A stretch of 64,000 nucleotides of DNA from the human T2T-CHM13v2.0 reference genome, Homo sapiens: NCBI RefSeq assembly GCF_009914755.1, contig NC_060928.1. One strand, 5' to 3'. The translations under genes and the position numbers were made by a program. Positions 2,901 to 49,379 of this stretch are shown in pieces (position 1 is the first letter of the stretch; each line of letters starts with the position of its first letter). The notes beneath the pieces are model-generated. The model searched no databases, was not told the origin of the DNA, and saw nothing but the letters and a program-made list of their open reading frames with translations.

Positions 2901-2980
2901 AAGCATGCTTACATCTATTCTGCATTAATAGATGCTGCATAACTAGATGCAAGCATAGTTACATCTATTCTGCATTAATA
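2901..2980. repeat. 30-bp direct repeat (period 50) with internal hairpins
   Basis: aagcatgcttacatctattctgcattaata (2901-2930) versus aagcatagttacatctattctgcattaata (2951-2980). Confidence 0.9.
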
Positions 2981-7720: not shown

Positions 7721-8924
7721 CACACTTTTAGTTTTATTTATCCTAAAGTGAAACTTTGTTCCTTTACTATTTTTCTAAGGATTAGAAAATCTACAAACTA
7801 TTTCTACTTTGCAATGCCCAGATTCAAAATTTCCGTAGAGTCATCAATTTGCATCTATCAATTAGTACAGATATTCATAAATCCAGTAAAGCCACATTGT
7901 GTTTGAAGTTTTTTAACATAAAGAAAACTAATGATAAATGCTAAGGGCAAACATAGGGATCAACCTGGACTTTATAAAAAGTCTGCTTATCCATCCCACA
8001 AAGCAATTGGCTTCTCACTAAGTTATCTTTCCCTCTACAACCCTCTAACCTTGAAACAAAGCAATCCATAAACAAATGAGCAAAAAGCTTAGACACATGC
8101 CTAAGAGATTCAATGCTTTATTTTTCTCAGACTTTGCAGAAAGGGTATGGATTTTGCTAAAAAGATTGTGTGTTGACTCTTAAAGGATCCTGTAAGCTTT
8201 GGATTAGTAAATCAGTATGCACTGAGTGAATGAAGAGAGAGAGAACTTTAGTCCAAAGAGCTGATTTTTTGAAACATAACCAAAGTATATCAAAGAAAGT
8301 ATATTCTTGATGACTATAGCACATTTTAAAGTGACAACATTCAAATGGAATTTAAAACTCAAGGAATTCATTTTCAAGGGCTCTCTCCTCTGCTTTTAGA
8401 ACAAAAAAAGTTTTGCATTTATTGATCCACCGTGTACTTACAACAAAAAAACCAACTTTTATTGAAAATCTGCTATGTGCTTAGGAGCCTAAGTGGATGG
8501 CAACAGTATTAATCAGAATAGAGAATTCAGATGAGCAGTTTTGGAGAATGGAGAAGGAAATAATAGGCACATAAGAAATAATGGCAAAAATAAAATCACT
8601 ACTAATAAATACTGTAATTTGAACCAGGTACTGTATTATCCTAGTACTCTGCACTGCTCTAGAAATAGTGTGCTTTATCTCATTAAGCATTCGCCTATAT
8701 TTTTTTCTGGCTCAGTGTTTGGTACTACTGTCTACCTAGTTGTCCAAGCAAAAATCCTGGACATCATTTTTGCTTTCTTTCACTAATCCAAAACCATTGA
8801 TTATCAAGTCCTACTCACGATCACTCTTCAATATCTCTCCAGGTAGTAAATTATCTCTCTCTACATTTTTACTTTCTTTATCACAGCACCACTACCCCTC
8901 ACAATAACATAACAACTGCTTTCT

Positions 8925-9594
8925 AGGTTATATGATCCCGAGTCTTCTCTCTATGTATCCACACCTTTGCCATGGCCTCATGGTGAGCCGAATGTTTTTT
9001 CTTCACCCTTTGTCACTGTGATATCCATAATAATTGGTAAATGTGAATTGATGAGTCTCTGGAACTTTTGAATCTGGGCATTGTAAAGTGGAAATAGTGA
9101 GTCAGTAGATTTTCTAATTCTTAGAAAAATGTTACATTGGAATAACCAATATAAATTTCTGTCATAATGGAAATATTCATCTCTTTGTGATTAAATGTAG
9201 AATTAATTACCTGGCAATGAAACACTTGAAATGTGTCTATTGCAGCTATAGGGATTGTATTATAAATGTTATTTACTCTTAATGAATTAAAATTTAAGTA
9301 TAAATAGCCATATGTAGTAAGTGGCTACTATATTGGAGGGAGCAGTAGTCTGTGAGATATCATTAATTTTCTTTTGCTCTTTAGCATCTCTGCTATCTCT
9401 GAGCAAACATGCCCAGCTTGCCCGCTGGCCTAAGAAGAATGAGAAACACATGGATTGGAACCACTCACGCTGGGACCAGCCTAGATCAGCTGCCCTCCAA
9501 CTGACCTGAAGCTACATTAAAGAGAATGTATCACTGCTATTTTAAGTAGCAAAGCTTGGAGGTAATTTGTTATGCAGCAAATCTTACTAACACA
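8925..9594 (+). mobile_element. MLT1 (H/I/J-like) MaLR LTR, interrupted by MER3
   Basis: tgtatccacacctttgccatg at the start; cagcctagatcagc...ttttaagtagcaaagcttggaggtaatttgttatgcagc...taacaca at the end. Confidence 0.55.
9135..9345. mobile_element. MER3 (hAT-Charlie) DNA transposon fossil
   Basis: cacttgaaatgtg...aaatagccatatgtagtaagtggctactatattggagggagcag matches MER3. Confidence 0.75.
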
Positions 9595-12329: not shown

Positions 12330-13260
12330 CAGACAAAGGGCTAATATCCAGAATCTACAATGAACTCAACAAATTTACAAGAAAAAAACAAACAGCCCCA
12401 TCAACAAGTGGGCGAAGGATATGAACAGACACTTCTCAAAAGAAGACATTTATGCAGCAAAAAAAAACATGAAAAAATGCTCATCATCACTGGCCATAAG
12501 AGAAATGCAAATCAAAACCACAATGAGATACCATCTCACACCAGTTAGAATGGCAATCATTAAAAAGTCAGGAAAAAACAGGTGCTGGAGAGGATGTGGA
12601 GAAATAGGAACACTTTTACACTGTTGGTGGGACTGTAAACTAGTTCAACCATTGTGGAAGTCAGTGTGGCGATTCCTCAGGGATCTAGAACTAGAAATAC
12701 CATTTGACCCAGCAATCCCATTACTGAGTATATACCCAAAGGATTATAAATCATGCTGCTATAAAGACACATGCACAAGTATGTTTATTGCGGCACTATT
12801 CACAATAGCAAAGACTTGCAACCAACCCAAATGTCCAACGACGATAGACTGGATTAAGAAAATGTGGCACATATACACCATGGAATACTATGCGGCCATA
12901 AAAAATGATGAGTTCATGTCCTTTGTAGTGACATGGATGAAGCTGGAAACCATCATTCTCAGCAAACTATTGCAAGCACAAAAAACCAAACACTGCATGT
13001 TCTCACTCATAGGTGGGAATTGAACAATGAGAACACATGGACACAGGAAGGGGAACATCACACACCGGGGCCTGTTGTGGGGTGGGGGGAGGGGGAAGGG
13101 ACAGCATTAGGAGATATACCTAATGTTAAATGACGAGTTGCTGGGTGCAGCACACCAACATGGCACATGTATACATACATAACTAACCTGCATGTTGTGC
13201 ACATGTACCCTAAAACTTAAAGTATAATAAAATAAATAAATAAATAAATAAATAAATAAG
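12330..13260 (+). mobile_element. L1PA4-like 5'-truncated LINE-1 (ORF2 C-terminus, 3'UTR, (TAAA)n tail)
   Basis: ORF 12421-13023 is the ORF2p C-terminus ([18 protein letters not shown]...SLIGGN); 3'UTR ggagatatacctaatgttaaatgacgag; no convincing TSD beyond gaaaat. Confidence 0.95.
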
Positions 13261-32142: not shown

Positions 32143-32180
32143 ATTACAAATATTGGGGATTATTACAAATATTGGGGATT
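32143..32180. repeat. Perfect 19-bp tandem duplication
   Basis: attacaaatattggggatt x2. Confidence 0.95.
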
Positions 32181-35768: not shown

Positions 35769-36157
<389 letters not shown>

Positions 36158-38499
36158 TGATCTTTAAAGCACCATCATCAGTTTTAACGTTGGGTTGCTT
36201 CATCTAAGGGATGACTAAGATGAACCATGTACATATTAATGTCTATAGACTAACTTTTAGAAAGGAAATATTAATTATTTTGGAAATGGGTCCTATATCA
36301 TACCACTTCTTGGAGAACATTGGGATAATTATCAGTACTCTTTTGAGAAAGAAGTGATTTTGGATTATTCCCAAATTGGGACTGCTGAGAATATCTGCAG
36401 CTTATGGCAATTAACTTAATTGAAGCACTTTAAGTACATTAATTAATTAATCTTCAAATTCCCCCTATAGAATGGAACATTAAGGAGGAAATCAATTTAT
36501 CAACAAAAATTAAGAGATTATATGACTTGTTCAAGGCCATGCAGTAAGTCATGGTCCAGATTTGACTGGGAAGGCAGGGCTTCTAAAGTCCAAACTTAGC
36601 CATTAAGGATCTGTACAAAATAAGACTTTATTAATATTTCTGATAGAGGCTTCAACTACTTCATTGATGGTCTTGAGGCCTGTAACACTCACTTCTGAGT
36701 GCTTTTCTTGAATTTTATTTTCTACAGATGTCAGTATTTTCTTCCTTCCTTCGCTCTTGTAGAGCCACAGGTTTCCACTGGTTAGGCTATCAGTTGGTGA
36801 GAGTATGCAGGTGAAAAAAATCACTGCTTGGCTCCTACCCTTGGGAAGCTTACATTATAAGGAAAAAGACAATTCAAATAGAACATCATCACTGCTAAAC
36901 GGAGATCGGTATGTAGAGGTTGACACACCAGGAAGAAAATTGCCTTTCAAAATAAGTACTGATCAATAACTTCTATTGAGTTGCCAGTCACATGTGGCAC
37001 ATTCAGATTTAAGAAACTATGCCCTTGTATCAAATTAGCTCTATTCCTGGACTAAGTGTCCTCAATTATCTTGCCTTAGTTGCTTCATATATCTCCAACT
37101 TTTATCTTATGAAAGAGCTTCCTGGAAATTTCCATAAAAGTAAAATAAATGTATCACAACATGACTCACTAAAGCATTTCAAACTAGATCTGCCTATTTG
37201 GGAAGCCAGAATGTGAAGATTTATACACTATGATTATCATTATCATCATCATCATTTTAAAATCTTTACTAAGAAATCATAACGTTCCTGATATTGTATG
37301 CATGACCATTTCATGATGATGATTTTAGATGCTTCAAACGAAGTTATCTAGAAACAATATGGTAAAAGGACTTGCCACGGAGCTGAGGTTTTGACATTTT
37401 GGCTTTTGCATTGTTTCTCATACTCTGCCTGTTGTGCACACGTTTCCCCTGTGATTCATGAGGATCATTGCATGAACTCTGTTTAGCATCAAAGCCAATC
37501 AACCCAGGAATTTCACTGTTGCTATCATGCTTATGTCTTAATAACATTGGCATTGCATTTTGATTTTCTATATTGAGGAATCTTTTGACATATGAGAGTA
37601 TCCATATACTGTCAGACAAACTCTTGTGAGTTATTGGACTGAATGATGGAAACACTAGAAAGAGGCCTAGGGGCTTTAGTTAAGATCTTTGGAAAAACTG
37701 GCTTGAGGATTCAGAAGTTAACTTCACTTCTGAATATGCAAAGTGAGCAGAAATGTGACGCAAGAACAGGAGAAACCCAGACCATATTTACACCTAAGGG
37801 ACCACTGCCTAGCCAAATGTTAGAGGAACAGAAAAGAGCAGGATACTGGTGAACACAGAGGAAAGGACTTTGACAATAAGACCATGAGACAACCATCCTT
37901 GATCAAAGCTTGGCAGGCTTTAAAGTACACACCTGGGCAGGTGAAACTGGTGTGAAAGAATCAAAGCTCTTAAGAGGATCACCGAGCTCTCTGGGGAAAT
38001 GGAGATCTCTGCAAACTGAAGATGGCCACAGAGCTGCGTGTCTTTGGAGAACCTGGGTAAACCAGAGCTGATGGTCTGTGCTGGCCTATGGGGCTCTGCC
38101 TGCAGAAGGGCCCAGGGAAGTGAGTAGGAATCTTGGCTATTTCACAAATGCTGTCCCATGTGAGTCTCCTGGCAACACAAGGAGAGGAGTATGGTGGGGG
38201 ATCATGATCTCCTTTTTACTGAAGAAAAGAATGGCTCAGAGAGCTAAAAGGAGTGAAGTTACCCAGCAAGGCTGTTCCAGACACAACACTAAAATCTGAT
38301 CATCTTATTTTTAACCCAGGGCACTGTTTACCCCAAAAACAGTCCTCTCTCAAACCTTGTTCTCAATCATTCAGAATTATACCTCCCTTTTAGCATTTGT
38401 TATAACTCGAACTCAATTTTACCTGAGAAGTGGTGAGTTATTTCCAAGTCTCATACCATAACCATATTAGAACCTATAAAAATAATCATAATAATGATA

Positions 38500-38720
38500 A
38501 TAAATGACAATGATAATAATAGCAGTTAAAATCTCTTGTGTACCATGTACCAGGCCCTAAGTATTTTACATGTATAGAGATTATTTAACTTAATCACAAT
38601 AAGTGAGGAAATATATATTAGGATTATTTTCATTTCATAGATTGGGAGGCTGAGACTCATGCAGTATATTTTCATGTTCATGGACACAGTAAGAGATAGA
38701 CCTAAAGTTTTGAACCTAGA
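38500..38720 (-). mobile_element. MIR
   Basis: taataatagcagtta...taccatgtaccaggccctaag...ttatttaacttaatcacaa...catttcatagattgggaggctgagactca. Confidence 0.65.
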
Positions 38721-39124
38721 CTATTTTTGCATTAAAAGCAGGGATCAAACTGTACTTATTTTTGTTTTTTCAATGGTGTAAACCATGATTTGTTACTATA
38801 TACTACCTTTTATGTCTTTATGTGCTCATAAAAGCTTGTGTAAGTGAAGCATAGCTTGATACTTCAACAGCACTGAGTTAATTGGGGAGACCAAACTCTG
38901 TAAGTTGACAAACAGAGGTTTAATGTACAATCTGAGTAAATATCTGCCTATATCTGGGTGTGGAAAAGGTGAAGACGAGTGAAGAAGACATACAGAGGAG
39001 AAAGAGCATACATTAAGTACCTTCTACGCATTAGGCAGGTTGGTCTGGCAGCAGGGAGGGGCAGGGTGAAGCAGACAAAAAGAGAAGTTGCAGCCTTGAA
39101 CTACTTGACTCACTAAAGCATTAG

Positions 39125-39335
39125 TGGCTGGCTACTTGGCTTCATCTAAGGGATGAATGAGATAAACTATGCACATATTAATGTCTACAGACTAACACTG
39201 GCTGCACTGTGGTGATACGAGATGGTTGTACAAGTTAGAGCAAGGCTCCCACCAAAATATATCCTTACCTTCCCACAGGGACTGGGAAGCTGGAGTTATC
39301 CCCTTGAATGTTCCCTTTGGCTGGCTACTTGGCTT
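39125..39335 (+). other. Chimeric locally templated insertion flanked by an 18-bp direct repeat
   Basis: 39139-39196 matches 36197-36254; 39199-39313 matches 47576-47689; tggctggctacttggctt at 39125-39142 and 39318-39335. Confidence 0.9.
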
Positions 39336-40356
39336 AGTTCTTTTTCTTATTAGACAAGATATGTAACTTTTCTGTGCCTCATCCTTTTCATTTATGCAAT
39401 GAACATAACAATCAGTATCTCAGAATCATATGAAAATTAAATCAAGTAACATATGCACCAGCCTTTCAAATGCTCCACTATTTCTCTGTCCCAAGTCACA
39501 TCATCACCACATTCACGTGAGGCTTGTTTTATCTGATTTTTGTTGATTGATTTTTCGCAGACATCTGAAAGGCAGTTGTGACTATCTCTGTTGTAGGGAT
39601 GAAGTAAGTTAGCATTGTTAATTATACACACTGAGGGTCAGGAGCGGAAAAGAGTCCAGATTTGGCTGATTTCAAACCCCAAAGTCTTTCCATAATATGT
39701 TAAAATATACCCTCAGCAGAGCTTTCTAGGACTACTGTATAGAGCCTTTTAAGTAATCCAGAACTTACTGTCACCTCATCTTTAGTTTGGATTTCACTCT
39801 GCTACTCGTCAACTCTCTGTTTAAAGCCATTCAATAAGTAGGGCCAAAATTCCATGCCAACGCTTAGATGGACCTTTGTTAACAGTCCTTTACTTACATT
39901 TTTAGCTTCAATTTCAGCCTCTTTTCCATTTGCATATTAATTGCATAAACACCCAGTGACTTATTTTTTCCCAAATGCACTAGCTATATTTTTGTCTCTG
40001 TATTTTGGAAGAGAGTTTTTACTAAGCTTAGAATAGATTCACATTCACCTAGGCTGCTTGTACGCCTACATGTCCTAAAAAATTTAATTCAATATTTCTA
40101 AAATTTACCAATTCAAAAACACAAACATTAAGCAAAACAAATAAACAGACAAGAAAAAAAAAAAACAAGAAATCTTGTGAAAAACATATTTTTGGACCTG
40201 AACTAAGTAAATTTGAATCGGAACTTCCAGAAGAGGTACCTGTAAGACCTACTTTTTACAAGAACTTCAATCAATTTTAAGATCAGATAAGTTTTAGCAC
40301 TACTTAAATGAAACAAAGTGTATGCTGCACTACAGTTTTCTGTTTGAAGTCTCTCG

Positions 40357-40854
40357 CTAATGTGTGGTGTCCTTTAAGAGTGTAATAGAACAAAACGAAA
40401 ACTGGGGAGGAGCCAAGACGGCCGAATAGGAACAGCTCCGGTCTACAGCTCCCAGCGTGAGCGCGCAGAAGACGGGTGATTTCTGCATTTCCATCTGAGT
40501 TACCGGGTTCATCTCACTAGGGAGTGCCAGACAGTGGGCGCACGACAGTGGGTGCAGCGCACCATGCGCGAGCCGAAGGAGGGTGAGGCATTGCCTCACT
40601 CGGGAAGTGCAAGGGGTCAGGGAGTTCCCTTTCCTAGTCAAAGAAAGGGGTGACAGACGGCACCTGGAAAATCGGGTCACTCCCACCCTAATACTGCGCT
40701 TTCCTGACAGGCTTAAAAAACGGCGCATCAGTAGATTATATCCCGCACCTGGCTCAGAGGGTCCTACACCCACAGAGTCTCGCTGATTGCTAGAACAGCA
40801 GTCTGAGATCAAACTGCAAGGTGGCAGTGAGGCTGGGGGAGGGGCGCCCACCAT
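40357..40854 (-). CDS. L1 antisense ORF0, extended to 165 aa and ending in flanking DNA (translation unverified)
   Basis: MVGAPPPASLPPCSLISDCCSSNQRDSVGVGPSEPG... matches the ORF0p N-terminus; open to a stop at 40357. Confidence 0.5.
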   Translation of the reverse strand: MVGAPPPASLPPCSLISDCCSSNQRDSVGVGPSEPGAGYNLLMRRFLSLSGKRSIRVGVTRFSRCRLSPLSLTRKGNSLTPCTSRVRQCLTLLRLAHGALHPLSCAHCLALPSEMNPVTQMEMQKSPVFCALTLGAVDRSCSYSAVLAPPQFSFCSITLLKDTTH

Positions 40855-41437
40855 TGCCCAGGCTTGCTTAGGTAAACAAAGCAGCCTGGAAGCTCGAACT
40901 GGGTGGAGCCCACCACAGCTCAAGGAGGCCTGCCTGCCTCTGTAGGCTCCACCTCTGGGGGCAGGGCACAGACAAACAAAAAGACAGCAGTAACCTCTGC
41001 AGACTTAAATGTCCCTGTCTGACAGCTTTGCAGAGAACAGCAGTTCTCCCAGCACGCAGCTGGAGATCTGAGAACGGGCAGACTGCCTCCTCAAGTGGGT
41101 CCCTGACCCCTGACCCCCGAGCAGCCTAACTTGGAGGCACCCCCCAGTAGGGGCAGACTGACACCTCACACAGCCAGGTACTCCTCTGAGACAAAACTTC
41201 TAGAGGAACGATCAGACAGCAGCATTTGCGATTCACGACAATCCGCCGTTCTACAGACACCGCTGCTGATACCCAGGCAAACACGGTCTGGAGTGGACCT
41301 CTAGCAAACTCCAACAGACCTGCAGCTGAGGGTCCTGTCTGTTAGAAGGAAAACTAACAAACAGAAAGGACATCCACACCAAAAACCCATCTGTACATCA
41401 CCATCATCAAAGACCAAAAGTAGATAAAACCACAAAG
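40404..41437 (+). promoter_or_regulatory. L1 5'UTR with internal sense and antisense promoters
   Basis: The most CpG-rich stretch in the window; complete 1034-bp 5'UTR; YY1 motif altered (aagacggcc instead of aagatggcc). Confidence 0.8.
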
Positions 41438-42449
41438 ATGGGGAAAAAACAGAGAAGAAAAACTGGAAACTCTAAAAAGCAGAGCACCTCTTCCTCCAAA
41501 GGAACACAGTACCTCACCAGCAATGGAACAAAGCTGGATGGAGAATGACTTTGACGAGTTGAGAGAAGAAGGCTTCAGACGATCAAACTACTCCGAGCTA
41601 CACGAGGAAATTCAAACCAAAGGAAAAGAAGTTAAAGACTTTGAAAAAAATTTAGACCAATGTATAACTAGAATAACCAATACAGAGAAGTGCTTAAAGG
41701 AGCTGATGGAGCTGAAAGCCAAGGCTAGAGAACTGCATGAAGAATGCAGAAGCCTCAGGAGCCGATGCAATCAACTGGAAGAAAGGGTATCAGTGATGGA
41801 AGACGAAATTAATGAAATGAAGTGAGAAGGGACGTTTAGAGAAAAAAGAATAAAAAGAAATGAACAAAGCCTCCAAGAAATATGGGACTATGTGAAAAGA
41901 CCAAATCTATGTCTGATTGGTGTACCTGAAAGTGACGGGGAGAATGGAACCAAGTTGGAAAACACTCTGCAGGATATTATCCAGGAGAACTTCCCCAATC
42001 TAGCAAGGCAGGCCAACATTCAGATTCAGGAAATACAGAGAATGCCACAAAGATACTCCTCGAGAAGAGCAACTCCGAGACACATAATTGTCAGATTCAC
42101 CAAAGTTGAAATGAAGGAAAAAATGTTAAGGGCAGCCAGAGAGAAAGGTCGGGTTACCCTCAAAGGGAAGCCCATCAGACTAACAGCGGATCTCTTGGCA
42201 GAAACTCACAAGCCAGAAGAGATTGGGGACCAATATTCAATATTCTTAAAGAAAAGAATTTTCAACCCAGATTTCATATCCAGCCTAACTAAGCTTCATA
42301 AGTGAAGGAGAAATGAAGTCCTTACAGACAAGCAAACGCTGAGAGATTGTGTCACCACCAGGCCTGCCCTAAAAGAGCTCCTGACAGAAGCACTAAACGT
42401 GGAAAGGAACAACTGGTGCCAGCCGCTGCAAAATCATGCCAAAATGTAA
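41438..42449 (+). pseudogene. L1 ORF1 (RNA-binding protein), disrupted
   Basis: ATG GGG AAA AAA CAG start; ORF1p peptides in separate frames (41523-41825, 41892-42305); in-frame TGA at 41823 and frameshifts. Confidence 0.93.
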
Positions 42450-42497
42450 AGACCATCGAGACTAGGAAGAAACTGCATCAACTAATGAGCAAAATAA

Positions 42498-46329
<3,832 letters not shown>

Positions 46330-46560
46330 ACAATGAGAACACATGGACACAGGAAGGGGAACATCACACTCTGGGGACTGCTGTGGGGTGGGGGGAGGGG
46401 GGAGGGATAGCATTAGGAGATATACATAATGCTAAATGAAGTGTTAATGGGTGCAGCACACCAGCATGGCACATGTATACATATGTAACTAACCTGCACA
46501 TTGTGCACATGTACCCTAAAACTTAAAGTATAATAATAAAAAATAAAGAGTGTAATAGAA

Positions 46561-46619
46561 CCTTATTCATCATTATATCCCTTATTCATCATTATATATG
46601 AACTTATATATATAAGTTC
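46561..46619. repeat. 18-bp direct repeat (period 19) plus a 20-bp perfect palindrome
   Basis: ccttattcatcattatat x2; gaacttatatatataagttc at 46600-46619. Confidence 0.9.
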
Positions 46620-47341
46620 TTTGCTTATAAAAGCCCAGGTCTTCAGAAATTATTTCCTGAATAAATGAATTCATGAAAGAATACCCTTGTACTTACATGA
46701 TAAGCAGATATCTCAGACGACTTATGGAGTCCTTTCAAGTCATAATAAGTAAGCATTCGAGATATTCTGTTGCTGATTTCTGATATTAGATTTTAAAAAA
46801 ATTTACAGAACAATTTTTCTTAGATCAACAGAAATTCCTCTATTTAGAGAACGTTAACAACTCTGCAGCACCTGTTCAGGTTCAAATTGGTTTGAAGAAG
46901 TCTTGTCTGTACACAGTTATACAACAACCAAGATTCAATGTGGATATAGAAACTTAGATTTGATGTATTTAAATTCAATGTGAAGGACTTTCCTGGCATG
47001 AGTACTAAATGATTATGGAGAAGAAGAGTGGTAATAAATCAGCACACCAGAGAAAAGATAAAGACAACAGAGAGAAGAGATTCAGACCAATCTAATATTT
47101 CTGGAATTTATACTGTTATCACAAAGGAACTCTTCTATTCAGAGTTTTATGTATCCTCATTCCTTTCAGAATGTATTCCATACTTCTCATTATGGCATAT
47201 TAGGTCTTCCAAGTCTGGTCCCATCAACTCTACAAGCTTCATTCTATTTCATTTTTATTACTCATCAAAAGAACTACTCATAGGAACCTCCGCTCTTCCC
47301 TCTCTGAACTGTTCCATGCCTTATGCTAAAGCAAAAAAACG

Positions 47342-48021
47342 TTGGGCACTAGTTAATGGTGATAAAGACAGATGTTATTTAGTGACCATTACTATGGAAT
47401 ACAAGAATGTCTAGTATAAACTGAGCTCAAATTTGCCAAAACGAAAAGCAGGAGACATGTTAAAAGCTGAGGTACACTAAAGCAGAGGAACTGGAGGGCA
47501 CAGAGTAGCAGTTTTATTCTTGTGAACAGCTCATATGGGTTTGCTAATTGGCACACATTCGGGGGGGAAACACATTGGCTGCACTGTCATGATACGAGAT
47601 GGTTGTAAAGTTAGAGCAAGGCTCCCACCAAAATATGTCCTCACCTTCCCACAGGGACTGGGAAGCTGGAGTTATCCCCTTGAATGTTCTCATTTCAAAG
47701 AGACGGCTTTGGGGTCCTTGAGAAATCAGTTCTGGGTGATAAAAAGAGTTACTTCTAAAAGAAGCAGAAAAGGGGTTTATACTTGCAAGCTTTCTAAAGT
47801 AACAGTTAAGGGACCTATAGGCCTATCATCAGGTTTTGCCTGGAATAAACACCCGATTATCCTAGTAGCTTTGAGCTTCCTTTGACAGGTATTTTAAAGG
47901 GGCCTGTAGCAACTAAGGCCACAGCCTTAAGGTGCTGCATAGTGTGCTTGAGTTTGGTTAAGTCTCTTAGTACAGGAGCTTGGATGGAGTCAATAAATGC
48001 TATGAGTTTTTGCAGTTTTTA
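47342..48021 (-). mobile_element. ERV1-class solo LTR (MER67-like)
   Basis: tataaactgagctcaa...tttcaaagagacggctttggggtccttgagaaa...gtttggttaagtctcttagtacagg...tgcagttt resembles MER67/MER31 in reverse. Confidence 0.6.
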
Positions 48022-49379
48022 CTTGCTCCTGGGATACTCTTCACTTCCATTTTCTCTAAAGAGAGTATCAGGCCTTTCTATGGTTGTGTCTACATTATCA
48101 AGTGAAGTGTTTGAAAGATGCCTGTGAGACAAAAGAAATAATTAATTAGAATGTCCCCTAATGTTCACAGAGTATACAAAATATCTTCATGTCCATTAAT
48201 AATGGTGTTAATTGCTGTTATTAAATACCTTCTGCATGCCACATGATTTACTTGCATTATCTCATATAATTCTCACAACCACTCTTTTGAGATAGTCATT
48301 GAATCTTTATCTTGCAAATAAAGAATATGAGAGTCAGAGGCACAAATTTTGTTGTCCAAGGGCATTCATTTAGAACTCTAGAGTTGAGAATCTTTAATAT
48401 GTACCTTCATAGCATTATTCTCAGAAAGTCACAATGCCGTTCCACATGCTATATACAACCCATTTGCTGCTAGAAAAGGAGTTGGTTTTACATTTTACAA
48501 ATGACATAACCCAGACTTAACGTACGCAGTATTCCCAAGATTACATAGCTAAATAGTAAAGATATAGTGACTCAAACTGATGCATTTCTAAACTCCAGAA
48601 ACTTTAAGTGTTAAATACACCATTTCTTTGCAATAATTTCAACCGAGTTAAAGAACATCTAAACCGTATGTAACCTTTTATCATTTTTATGCTTATGACT
48701 GTGTGCTAATGGAAAATGTAAATTTCCTGGCAATTTACAGCAGATTTTACATTAGTGGCACTGTTCTCATAGTCCTGTTATCTCAGTTTGTCTTAAACAT
48801 TTATTACTAATTTGACACCAGTGATATTCTAATTAAAGTTCTTTCTCTAACATGAAATAGAGTATTATATAAAGCAGAAAGAATGTTTTCATTCCATTTA
48901 GATTGCCAGATATTTCATGGGTGGTTTACAATAAATGTTGGAAGCAATTTTGTTTATTTGTTTAGGAAATCATCATTTCCATCATTCTTACTCCATATTA
49001 CAACCCTGTATTTCCTTAGCTAATTTTCGTGTTTCATTAGACGCTCTTTCATGCAAAGAGTTTTCGTTTAGGCACAATTGTTAATTAAAGTGAGTATTGA
49101 AATTGCTTAATTGCCTGAAAAAAGATGTTATATTTTTCCAAGCATGACCTATGCTATTGGCAGAAAGATTATTAAAACTTTCATATTTAAGGAAAAAAAA
49201 GCAGGGTTTGAGGATAAAATTAGGTCATTCTGAACTCTTTTTACATAATCAGAATCTAAATAAGCTCCACTCAGTCACTGACCCCTGTTGATTCTTCTTC
49301 CTAAATACACATTACAAATGTCTTTTTCTTTTTTTCATCTATCCCCACTTTCTCCGCTCTAGGTCACTGGCTTATTTTC

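What the first reader, a model, noticed from the sequence alone, without database searches (positions are those of the whole stretch)
39125..39335. Chimeric insertion stitched from two distant local templates between 18-bp direct repeats (template-switch scar)
Seen in sequence: tggctggctacttggctt occurs at 39125-39142 and again at 39318-39335. Between them, 39139-39196 copies 36197-36254 (~2.9 kb upstream; 6 mismatches in 58 bp by eye). Then 39199-39313 copies 47576-47689 (~8.4 kb downstream, inside a MER67-like LTR; about 4 substitutions and 1 indel). Both copies keep the donor orientation. Junctions carry microhomology: 'gctt' from the repeat into segment A, and 'aac' from A (ctaac) into B (aacac). 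There is no poly(A) and no TE ends. Established: serial microhomology-guided copying of nearby DNA followed by rejoining with duplication is the signature of FoSTeS/MMBIR or polymerase-theta templated insertion. Inference: if the event predates the L1PA3 insertion (~6.2 kb), the downstream donor was only ~2.2 kb away, so both donors were within ~3 kb of the break.
Basis: partly seen in the sequence, partly recalled or inferred. Interest (0 to 1): 0.8.

Follow-up and report, generated by a model that had tools for sequence, protein, structure and literature searches.

The report
Old repair scar copied from nearby DNA
A 175-base insertion in a gene-free part of human chromosome 4 was stitched together from copies of two nearby stretches of DNA when an ancient chromosome break was mended; it is a clean but ordinary example of a kind of repair scar already catalogued in primate genomes.

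Summary
An exact 18-base direct repeat (39125-39142, 39318-39335) brackets 175 bases. These consist of a 58-base copy of 36197-36254 (52/58 identical), a 119-base copy of 47572-47689 (113/119) and 4 bases of unassigned filler.

A search of the whole genome finds no other place where the two pieces are joined. Donor A is single-copy. Donor B lies inside an old interspersed repeat whose other copies are at most 77% like the insert.

Junctions share 4 bases (GCTT) and 2-3 bases (AC or AAC). There is no poly(A) and no GT-AG splice pair.

I add one point: a 23-base patch (39100-39122, 21/23 identical to 37156-37178) abuts the left repeat. Its 17-base core occurs only twice in the 3.1-Gb genome.

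Best reading: one ancient germline break repaired by synthesis-dependent copying of local DNA. This matches the "repair-mediated duplications" of Pace et al. 2009 (PMC2671141): 824 proximal cases, 20 with two donors, TSDs of 4-21 nt. This event is not in their Table S1.

The exact pathway (SDSA, serial template switching or Pol theta) cannot be told from sequence. It is a new member of a known kind, of low to moderate interest.

The parts
39125..39142 (+). Left copy of the exact 18-nt direct repeat (TSD-like). Its last 4 nt (GCTT) are shared with the start of donor A.
   Evidence: 18/18 identical to 39318-39335.
39139..39196 (+). Segment A: copy of 36197-36254. The first 4 nt are microhomology with the 18-mer and the last 2 nt overlap segment B.
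   Evidence: 52/58 identical, ungapped; the only other copy in the genome.
39195..39313 (+). Segment B: copy of 47572-47689, with one extra base at 39231.
   Evidence: 113/119 columns; every other copy of the repeat family is at most 77% identical to it.
39314..39317 (+). 4 nt (CCTT) between the end of B and the right 18-mer. Either filler, or B continued to 47694 with 2 mismatches in 5.
   Evidence: (family D1).
39318..39335 (+). Right copy of the exact 18-nt direct repeat.
39100..39122 (+). Segment C: 23-nt patch, 21/23 identical to 37156-37178, ending 2 nt (AG) before the left 18-mer. Probably part of the same event; the direction of copying is unknown.
   Evidence: (D8); the 17-nt core occurs only at these two places in the 3.1-Gb genome.
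36197..36254 (+). Donor A: single-copy DNA 2871 bp upstream of the site.
   Evidence: 36110-36480 matches only itself and the insert. Distance.
47572..47689 (+). Donor B, inside an old interspersed repeat spanning about 47328-48024. It lies 8254 bp downstream today, or 2084 bp without the L1.
   Evidence: 42 matches, other copies 66-81% identical; 25 of 27 family copies run through the right end of B and 2 of 27 through the left end..
37156..37178 (+). Partner of segment C (donor or copy), 1922 bp upstream of it.
   Evidence: 36850-37480 is otherwise single-copy.
40376..46561 (+). Full-length L1 (6154 bp, 40392-46545, including 12 extra nt at its 5' junction) with 16-nt TSDs at 40376-40391 and 46546-46561. 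It lies between the site and donor B. It is context, not part of the event.

Best explanation
This is the scar of one ancient germline chromosome break, or one stalled and broken replication intermediate, at about 39142. It was mended by DNA synthesis on nearby ectopic templates. It is not a mobile element and has no evident function.

Proposed steps:

1. Inferred: the break left both ends carrying the same 18 nt. This happens with a staggered break, or if synthesis re-entered 18 nt behind the point where it left.
2. Shown as a 4-nt identity; the priming itself is inferred. The top-strand 3' end, ending in GCTT, paired with the GCTT at 36197-36200, 2.9 kb upstream, and copied 54 more bases.
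3. The join is shown; which route was taken is not decidable. Segment B was copied from 47572-47689 in one of two ways. Either the same growing end switched template at AC/AAC, or the other broken end invaded there and the two new strands annealed at AC. The second route is the two-donor SDSA scheme of Pace et al. 2009.
4. Shown: 4 unassigned bases (CCTT) were left at the right junction.
5. Probable: a 23-nt patch shared with 37156-37178, lying just left of the left 18-mer, belongs to the same event. That would make it a patchwork of at least three local donors.

Both donors stayed intact, so the process was conservative copying.

Pooled donor-to-copy divergence is 6.3% (95% interval 3.2-11.3%). 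This puts the event very roughly 15-30 million years ago, with an outer range of about 7-56. Both copies have since decayed neutrally.
For: - Anatomy and statistics of the three matches and the 18-mer.
- Genome-wide, the insert matches only its two local donors plus one 77% copy of the repeat family, 4 matches in all including itself. The same result came with 1061 bp of context.
- Donor A is single-copy: 2 matches, itself and the insert.
- Donor B is the original. It is continuous with its repeat family on both sides: 25 of 27 aligned family copies cross its right end and 2 of 27 cross its left end. The family has 42 matches at 66-81% identity.
- Of the 5 B substitutions, the family copies place 2 on the donor lineage (47575 and 47642), 2 on the insert lineage (39211 and 39261), and 1 is ambiguous. 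That is the pattern expected for an old copy followed by neutral decay on both sides.
- A and B divergences do not differ significantly: 6/58 against 5/118, Fisher p = 0.18. The chance that an 18-mer pair shows no mismatch at this divergence is 0.30.
- There is no poly(A) (longest A run 4). No GT-AG pair fits any junction placement on either strand.
- The 17-nt core of segment C occurs twice in the genome, with 0 hits for the reversed control. In the window, dispersed exact pairs of 16 nt or more outside known repeats are few.
- The published class has the same features (PMC2671141, sections read). It comprises 824 intrachromosomal duplications under 5 kb apart, mean 162 bp. Twenty acceptors are chimeras of 2 donors, 5 of them with the second donor within 3.5 kb of the first. 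Microhomology is 2-9 nt, filler 1-68 nt and TSD 4-21 nt. None of the 39 inspected proximal cases has a poly(A/T) tail.
Against: - No orthologous empty site could be examined, so the insertion, its single-event nature and its age are all inferred from one genome.
- Segment A is twice as diverged as B (10.3% against 4.2%). This is not significant, but it is compatible with two events or with error-prone synthesis.
- Donor B is 8.3 kb away today. That is outside the 5-kb 'proximal' bound unless the event predates the L1, and divergence does not settle this. The event shows about 3.2% per lineage (1.6-5.7%). The L1's 3' end is 96-97% identical to its 39 best relatives, which are a biased sample of 4082 candidates.
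- An 18-nt duplication is also the typical size of an L1-endonuclease TSD.
- Segment C lies outside the 18-mer pair, which the simple TSD model does not predict.
Confidence: 0.8

Rival explanations
1. Reverse-transcriptase-mediated insertion: L1 ORF2p target-primed copying of local RNA with a template jump. This would be a class 1 'templated sequence insertion' or a chimeric retrocopy.
For: - The 18-nt TSD lies in the usual L1 range. Class 1 TSIPs are defined by a TSD of at least 5 bp (PMC5110952, text read).
- Read on the minus strand, the nick would fall at GCTT/AG, a partial likeness to TTTT/A.
- A and B lie in the insert in the same order and orientation as in the genome, as two parts of one long transcript would.
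Against: - No poly(A) (longest A run 4) and no poly(A) signal position could be assigned.
- The nick site is a poor match to the consensus.
- No GT-AG fits any placement of the A/B junction on either strand.
- No gene is annotated within 100 kb (hub annotation).
- In Pace et al., none of 39 inspected proximal duplications had a poly(A/T) tail, against 17 of 29 distant ones.
Confidence: 0.07
2. Two or three separate insertions at the same spot at different times: A first, B later, and C separately.
For: A is 10.3% diverged from its donor and B 4.2%. C lies outside the 18-mer pair.
Against: - The difference is not significant (Fisher p = 0.18).
- A and B abut with a 2-nt overlap and are bracketed together by one exact 18-mer pair. 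A second hit would have had to land exactly between the end of A and the right repeat.
- Dispersed non-repeat duplicates are rare in this window.
Confidence: 0.06
3. End joining with capture of free DNA fragments. Pieces released from nearby breaks would be ligated into a staggered break, and the donors restored from the sister chromatid or homologue.
For: Filler bases occur at one junction and the microhomologies are short, as in end joining (PMC5110952). The fragment sizes of 58 and 118 bp are plausible.
Against: This needs several simultaneous breaks, each with perfect restoration of its donor. All three pieces keep the donor orientation, which ligation of free fragments does not predict (chance 1 in 4 for A and B relative to the site, by my own reasoning). 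Copying by synthesis explains intact donors directly.
Confidence: 0.05
4. Not an event at all: chance similarity, or pieces of a repeat family that occur joined elsewhere.
For: Segment B belongs to an interspersed repeat family.
Against: E-values are 1e-44 and 1e-12 genome-wide. A is single-copy. The join exists nowhere else. The insert's B is 95% identical to the local copy and at most 77% to the 26 of 28 fetched family loci that it hits.
Confidence: 0.01

Closest known systems
[quoted passage not shown]
   Same: - Short insertion: 175 bp here against a mean of 162 bp.
- Copied from intact donors a few kb away on the same chromosome.
- No poly(A).
- Microhomology plus filler plus TSD at the breakpoints.
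- Chimeric acceptor built from two donors joined at 2-3 nt.
- Divergence of 6.3% lies within the spread of their catarrhine-age (HCOR) rows on chr4, which run from 1.4% to 14%.
   Different: - Not in their Table S1. Among all 143 'chr4' cells, no acceptor lies between 10.52 and 14.86 Mb in hg18 coordinates. Their pipeline only saw acceptors inside annotated transposable elements.
- Donor B is more than 5 kb away today.
- A possible third 23-nt donor is present.
- An 18-nt TSD is near the top of their 4-21 nt range.
FoSTeS/MMBIR templated insertions (MMB-TIs; Osia et al. 2021, PMC8421209, passages only)
   Same: Serial switches at microhomology, several templates per event, found as germline variants, and return to the original locus.
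   Different: As searched for there, MMB-TIs are inverted copies of templates within 100 bp of the insertion. Here the copies are direct and the donors are 1.9-8.3 kb away. No CNV or larger rearrangement is attached.
Polymerase-theta-mediated end joining templated insertions (review PMC12426944, passages only)
   Same: Minimal base pairing primes synthesis. Iterative dissociation and re-annealing gives a patchwork of segments, with unassignable bases in between. The 18-mer and the 23-nt patch are of typical size.
   Different: These insertions are described as generally under 25 bp and copied from sequence flanking the break. Segments A (58 nt) and B (118 nt) are longer and come from kilobases away.
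Templated sequence insertion polymorphisms (Onozawa and Aplan 2016, PMC5110952)
   Same: A templated, non-excised patch at a break. It has the TSD of class 1, and the microhomology and filler of class 2.
   Different: TSIP donors are distant and mostly transcribed. Class 1 needs a poly(A) tail and a TTTT/A site, both absent here. Class 2 has no TSD. This event is fixed and old, not polymorphic as far as can be told.

Membership tests
Repair-mediated duplication (Pace et al. 2009) | Inserted sequence of at least 50 bp with one identifiable parental copy elsewhere in the genome | tested here: met
   A has exactly one other copy. For B, the local copy is 95% identical and every other family copy at most 77%.
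Repair-mediated duplication (Pace et al. 2009) | Donor on the same chromosome within 5 kb of the acceptor (proximal class) | tested here: inconclusive
   A is 2871 bp away and C 1922 bp. B is 8254 bp away now, or 2084 bp if the event predates the L1. The order of the two events is unresolved.
Repair-mediated duplication (Pace et al. 2009) | No poly(A/T) tract of 5 bp or more at an end; breakpoints with microhomology, filler, deletion or TSD | tested here: met
   Longest A run 4, longest T run 2. Microhomologies of 4 nt and 2-3 nt, a 4-nt filler and an 18-nt TSD.
Repair-mediated duplication (Pace et al. 2009) | Empty orthologous site in an outgroup species | not testable with these tools
   No primate genomes are held. 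The flanks are single-copy, so there is no paralogous empty site either.
FoSTeS/MMBIR | Two or more template switches, each at microhomology, to nearby templates | tested here: met
   GCTT, AC/AAC, and 0-1 nt at the third junction. Donors lie within 8.3 kb.
FoSTeS/MMBIR | Attached copy-number change or complex rearrangement; long-tract, error-prone replication | tested here: not met
   Only 193 bp were added. The flanks are collinear and single-copy. The excess divergence of A is not significant.
Pol theta (TMEJ) templated insertion | Small insertion (generally under 25 bp) templated from sequence flanking the break | tested here: not met
   A is 58 nt and B 118 nt, from 2.9 kb and 2.1-8.3 kb away. 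Only the 18-mer and the 23-nt patch fit by size. The definition is taken from PMC12426944.
L1 ORF2p-mediated insertion (TSIP class 1 / retrocopy) | TSD of at least 5 bp | tested here: met
   18-nt exact duplication.
L1 ORF2p-mediated insertion (TSIP class 1 / retrocopy) | Poly(A) tail downstream of a polyadenylation signal; insertion at TTTT/A | tested here: not met
   No A or T run longer than 4. The candidate nick sites are TTAG/TGGC (plus orientation) or GCTT/AG (minus orientation).
Processed (spliced) transcript copy | Exon-exon junction flanked by GT...AG in the donor DNA | tested here: not met
   None of the 7 possible junction placements (3 ungapped, 4 gapped) gives GT and AG together on either strand.

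The most novel reading that the evidence does not exclude
All four duplicated pieces record one multi-template repair event that sampled at least three separate sites. The pieces are the 23-nt patch, the 18-mer, A and B. The sites span about 11 kb today, or about 5 kb if the event came before the L1.

On this reading the left '18-mer' is not a target-site duplication. It would be a short copy of the opposite break end, made in a first abortive joining attempt. The event would then be a hybrid: a Pol-theta-like patchwork of short pieces that went over into longer SDSA-like synthesis.

Such events would be fossil records of which sequences were in physical contact with a germline break.
Probability: 0.15. 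Interest if true: 0.5.

Novelty: new member of a known kind. Interest (0 to 1): 0.25.

Why it matters
It has no functional importance. The locus is a gene desert and nothing suggests selection.

Its value is as a very clean, fully resolved example of a rare subclass. In Pace et al. 2009, 20 of 1,136 candidate duplicons were two-donor chimeras, and only 5 of those had the two donors within 3.5 kb of each other. This example lies in non-repeat DNA, where that TE-based screen could not look.

Cases like this, once dated with primate orthologues, help to calibrate how far a broken end searches for a template in the germline. They also show that raw self-similarity scans can recover such scars outside annotated repeats.

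Tried and rejected
- **Alu-swamped search.** The genome search with 35950-36500 was swamped by the neighbouring Alu (4131 candidates) and said nothing about donor A. I repeated it without the Alu.
- **Paralogous empty site.** The flanks 38700-39760 are single-copy, so none exists.
- **Direction of copying for the 23-nt patch.** 36850-37480 is single-copy, and the alignment does not extend beyond 23 nt, so polarity cannot be told.
- **Spliced-transcript origin.** Rejected on splice sites.
- **Two-event model.** Not supported by the divergence test, but not excluded.
- **Order of the L1 and the event.** Divergences overlap, so it is unresolved.
- **Repeat family names (MER67, L1PA3).** These could not be checked because no repeat library was available.
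- **Structure, protein and RNA tools.** Not used; the region is non-coding, so I had no question for them.

Full report
**1. The observation**

The sequence was read directly and compared with the whole window by blastn with a 7-base word and by the repeat finder.

- The 18-mer at 39125-39142 recurs exactly at 39318-39335.
- Segment A: 39139-39196 matches 36197-36254 without gaps at 52/58 (E 7.6e-17).
- Segment B: 39195-39313 matches 47572-47689 at 113 of 119 columns, with 5 substitutions and one extra base at 39231 (E 7e-49).
The B match begins four bases earlier than stated, with one further mismatch.
- Beyond each segment end, similarity falls to background. In the 40 nt outside, identity is 9/40 and 8/40 for A and 10/40 and 16/40 for B. 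The random mean is 10.8 and the 95th percentile is 16.
- In a self-comparison of the whole 64-kb window, 5 of the 38 non-self matches at E below 1e-4 reach 85% identity. Two of those are these segments. One is an L1 3' fragment (12332-13240 against 45644-46547). The other two are short matches of 37 and 58 nt that touch NCBI-masked stretches.

**2. Is it a repeat family or a unique event?**

The window's own assembly (3.1 Gb, 24 contigs) could be searched.

- The 211-bp feature has four matches: itself, the two local donors, and one 77% match to part of B on another chromosome. A 1061-bp query with flanks gave the same four. The A-B join therefore exists nowhere else, and the flanks are single-copy.
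- A first search around donor A was swamped by the adjacent Alu. Repeated without it, 36110-36480 matches only itself and the insert.
- Donor B lies in an old interspersed repeat. The query 47200-48100 gave 42 matches (40 of 77 candidates scored), with other copies 66-81% identical and together covering about 47328-48024.
- I fetched 28 family loci. Twenty-seven align to the donor region. Of these, 25 run through the right end of B and 2 through its left end. The insert's B hits 26 of the 28, at no more than 77% identity.
- So 47572-47689 is the original, embedded in its repeat, and 39195-39313 is a copy of that particular copy.

**3. Junctions**

- *Target to A.* The 18-mer ends in GCTT and donor A begins with GCTT, giving 4 nt of microhomology.
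- *A to B.* In the ungapped alignment the two overlap by AC (39195-39196). AAC is possible only with a 2-nt gap. At the mismatch next to this junction (39198 C against 47575 T), both family copies that reach it carry C. The donor is therefore the side that changed later, and the copy was perfect from 39195 onward.
- *B to target.* Four bases (39314-39317) separate the end of B from the right 18-mer. They are either filler, or B running on to 47694 with 2 mismatches in 5.
- The insert has no A run above 4 and no T run above 2. None of the 7 possible placements of the A/B junction gives GT...AG on either strand. Classical retrotransposition and a spliced-RNA origin are therefore not supported.

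**4. A third patch**

- Directly left of the left 18-mer, separated from it by two bases, 39100-39122 matches 37156-37178 at 21/23, with a 17-nt exact core.
- That 17-mer occurs exactly twice in the whole genome, at these two places and on the same strand. The reversed control gives 0 hits.
- The match does not extend beyond 23 nt.
- Between 39000-39460 and the rest of the window, chance exact matches never exceed 12 nt.
- Across the window there are 137 exact pairs of 16 nt or more, of which 46 survive a filter for masked repeats and low complexity. By eye, most of those 46 are still unmasked Alu or L1 pieces or tandem arrays, and few are dispersed single-copy pairs.
- This patch is therefore very unlikely to sit next to the scar by chance. 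It probably belongs to the same event.
- Its partner region is single-copy, so I cannot say which copy is the donor.
- It lies outside the 18-mer pair. This leaves two models: a true 18-nt target duplication with a neighbouring patch, or a longer patchwork (39100-39317) in which the left 18-mer is itself a copy of the opposite break end.

**5. One event, and when**

- A is 6/58 diverged and B 5/118 (Fisher p = 0.18).
- Pooled divergence is 11/174 = 6.3% (95% interval 3.2-11.3%). The Jukes-Cantor distance is 0.066.
- At that distance, an 18-mer pair has a 0.30 chance of showing no difference.
- Substitutions are mostly transitions: 5:1 in A and 4:1 in B.
- Of the 5 B differences, 2 fall on the donor lineage, 2 on the insert lineage, and 1 is ambiguous. 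This is the pattern of neutral decay on both sides.
- With 2.2e-9 per site per year, the rate quoted in PMC2671141, applied per lineage, the age is about 15 Myr. With about 1.1e-9, a figure I recall rather than one from any call, it is about 30 Myr. The outer bounds are roughly 7-56 Myr.

**6. The L1**

- A full-length L1 with an exact 16-nt TSD (40376-40391 and 46546-46561) adds 6170 bp. Without it, donor B would be 2084 bp from the site.
- Its 3' 900 bp is 96-97% identical to its 39 best relatives, out of 40 scored from 4082 candidates, which is a biased sample.
- That implies about 2% or a little more of decay in this copy. The scar shows about 3.2% per lineage (1.6-5.7%).
- The scar is probably as old as the L1 or older, but the order is not settled.

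**7. What is known**

- *Pace, Sen, Batzer and Feschotte 2009* (PMC2671141). I read the abstract, sections 4, 6, 7, 8 and 14, part 1 of Table S1, and all of its chr4 rows. The paper describes exactly this kind of scar:
  - 1,136 candidate duplicons, of which 824 have donor and acceptor within 5 kb, with mean length 162 bp;
  - 20 acceptors that are chimeras of two donors, 5 with the donors within 3.5 kb of each other;
  - breakpoints with microhomology of 2-9 nt, filler of 1-68 nt and TSD of 4-21 nt;
  - none of 39 inspected proximal cases with a poly(A/T) tail.

  The authors explain them by synthesis-dependent strand annealing, in which the two broken ends may copy different templates and then anneal at microhomology. 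They link them to the short local 'doublets' of Thomas et al., which I know only through their text.
- This locus is not in their Table S1. The chr4 acceptors nearest to it are at 10.52 and 14.86 Mb in hg18 coordinates. Their screen could only see acceptors inside annotated TEs.
- *Pol theta insertions* are described as generally under 25 bp and copied from break-flanking sequence (PMC12426944, passages).
- *MMB-TIs*, as searched for by Osia et al., are inverted copies from within 100 bp (PMC8421209, passages).
- *TSIP class 1* needs a poly(A) tail and a TTTT/A site, and class 2 has no TSD (PMC5110952, parts 1-2).
- *Meiotic breaks* are reported as a source of microhomology-mediated germline insertions (PMC7615360, passages). 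I could not test whether this site was ever a hotspot.

**8. Verdict**

The finding is real and well described. It is best read as one ancient germline repair event that copied two, and probably three, nearby sequences into a break. It is a new, uncatalogued member of a known class rather than a new phenomenon.

Which enzyme pathway made it cannot be decided from one genome. Primate orthologues would settle the empty site, the single-event question, the role of the 23-nt patch, and the order relative to the L1.

Noticed in passing
window 39100-39122 and 37156-37178: 23-nt patch (21/23 identical, 17-nt exact core) that occurs only at these two places in the whole genome. One copy ends 2 nt before the left 18-mer of the scar. 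The direction of copying is unknown.
   Followed up: yes
window 46561-46597: An exact 18-mer repeated in tandem with one base between the copies (46561-46578 and 46580-46597), starting at the last base of the L1's 3' target-site duplication (46546-46561). It may be a small duplication made at the L1 integration site.
   Followed up: no
window 40392-40403: Twelve extra bases lie between the L1's 5' target-site duplication (40376-40391) and the canonical L1 5' start at 40404. They could be filler or a short 5' transduction.
   Followed up: no
window 7769-7875 and 9020-9130: An inverted repeat of about 107 nt at about 83% identity, with an 18-nt exact core, 1.25 kb apart. It could be the terminal inverted repeats of an old DNA transposon or an inverted local duplication.
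   Followed up: partly
window 12332-13240: A truncated L1 3' fragment, 93% identical to the 3' end of the full-length L1 at 45644-46547.
   Followed up: no
window 2909-2930 and 2959-2980; 32143-32180: Short exact local direct repeats: a 22-mer pair 50 bp apart and a 19-mer in tandem. These are ordinary small duplications.
   Followed up: no
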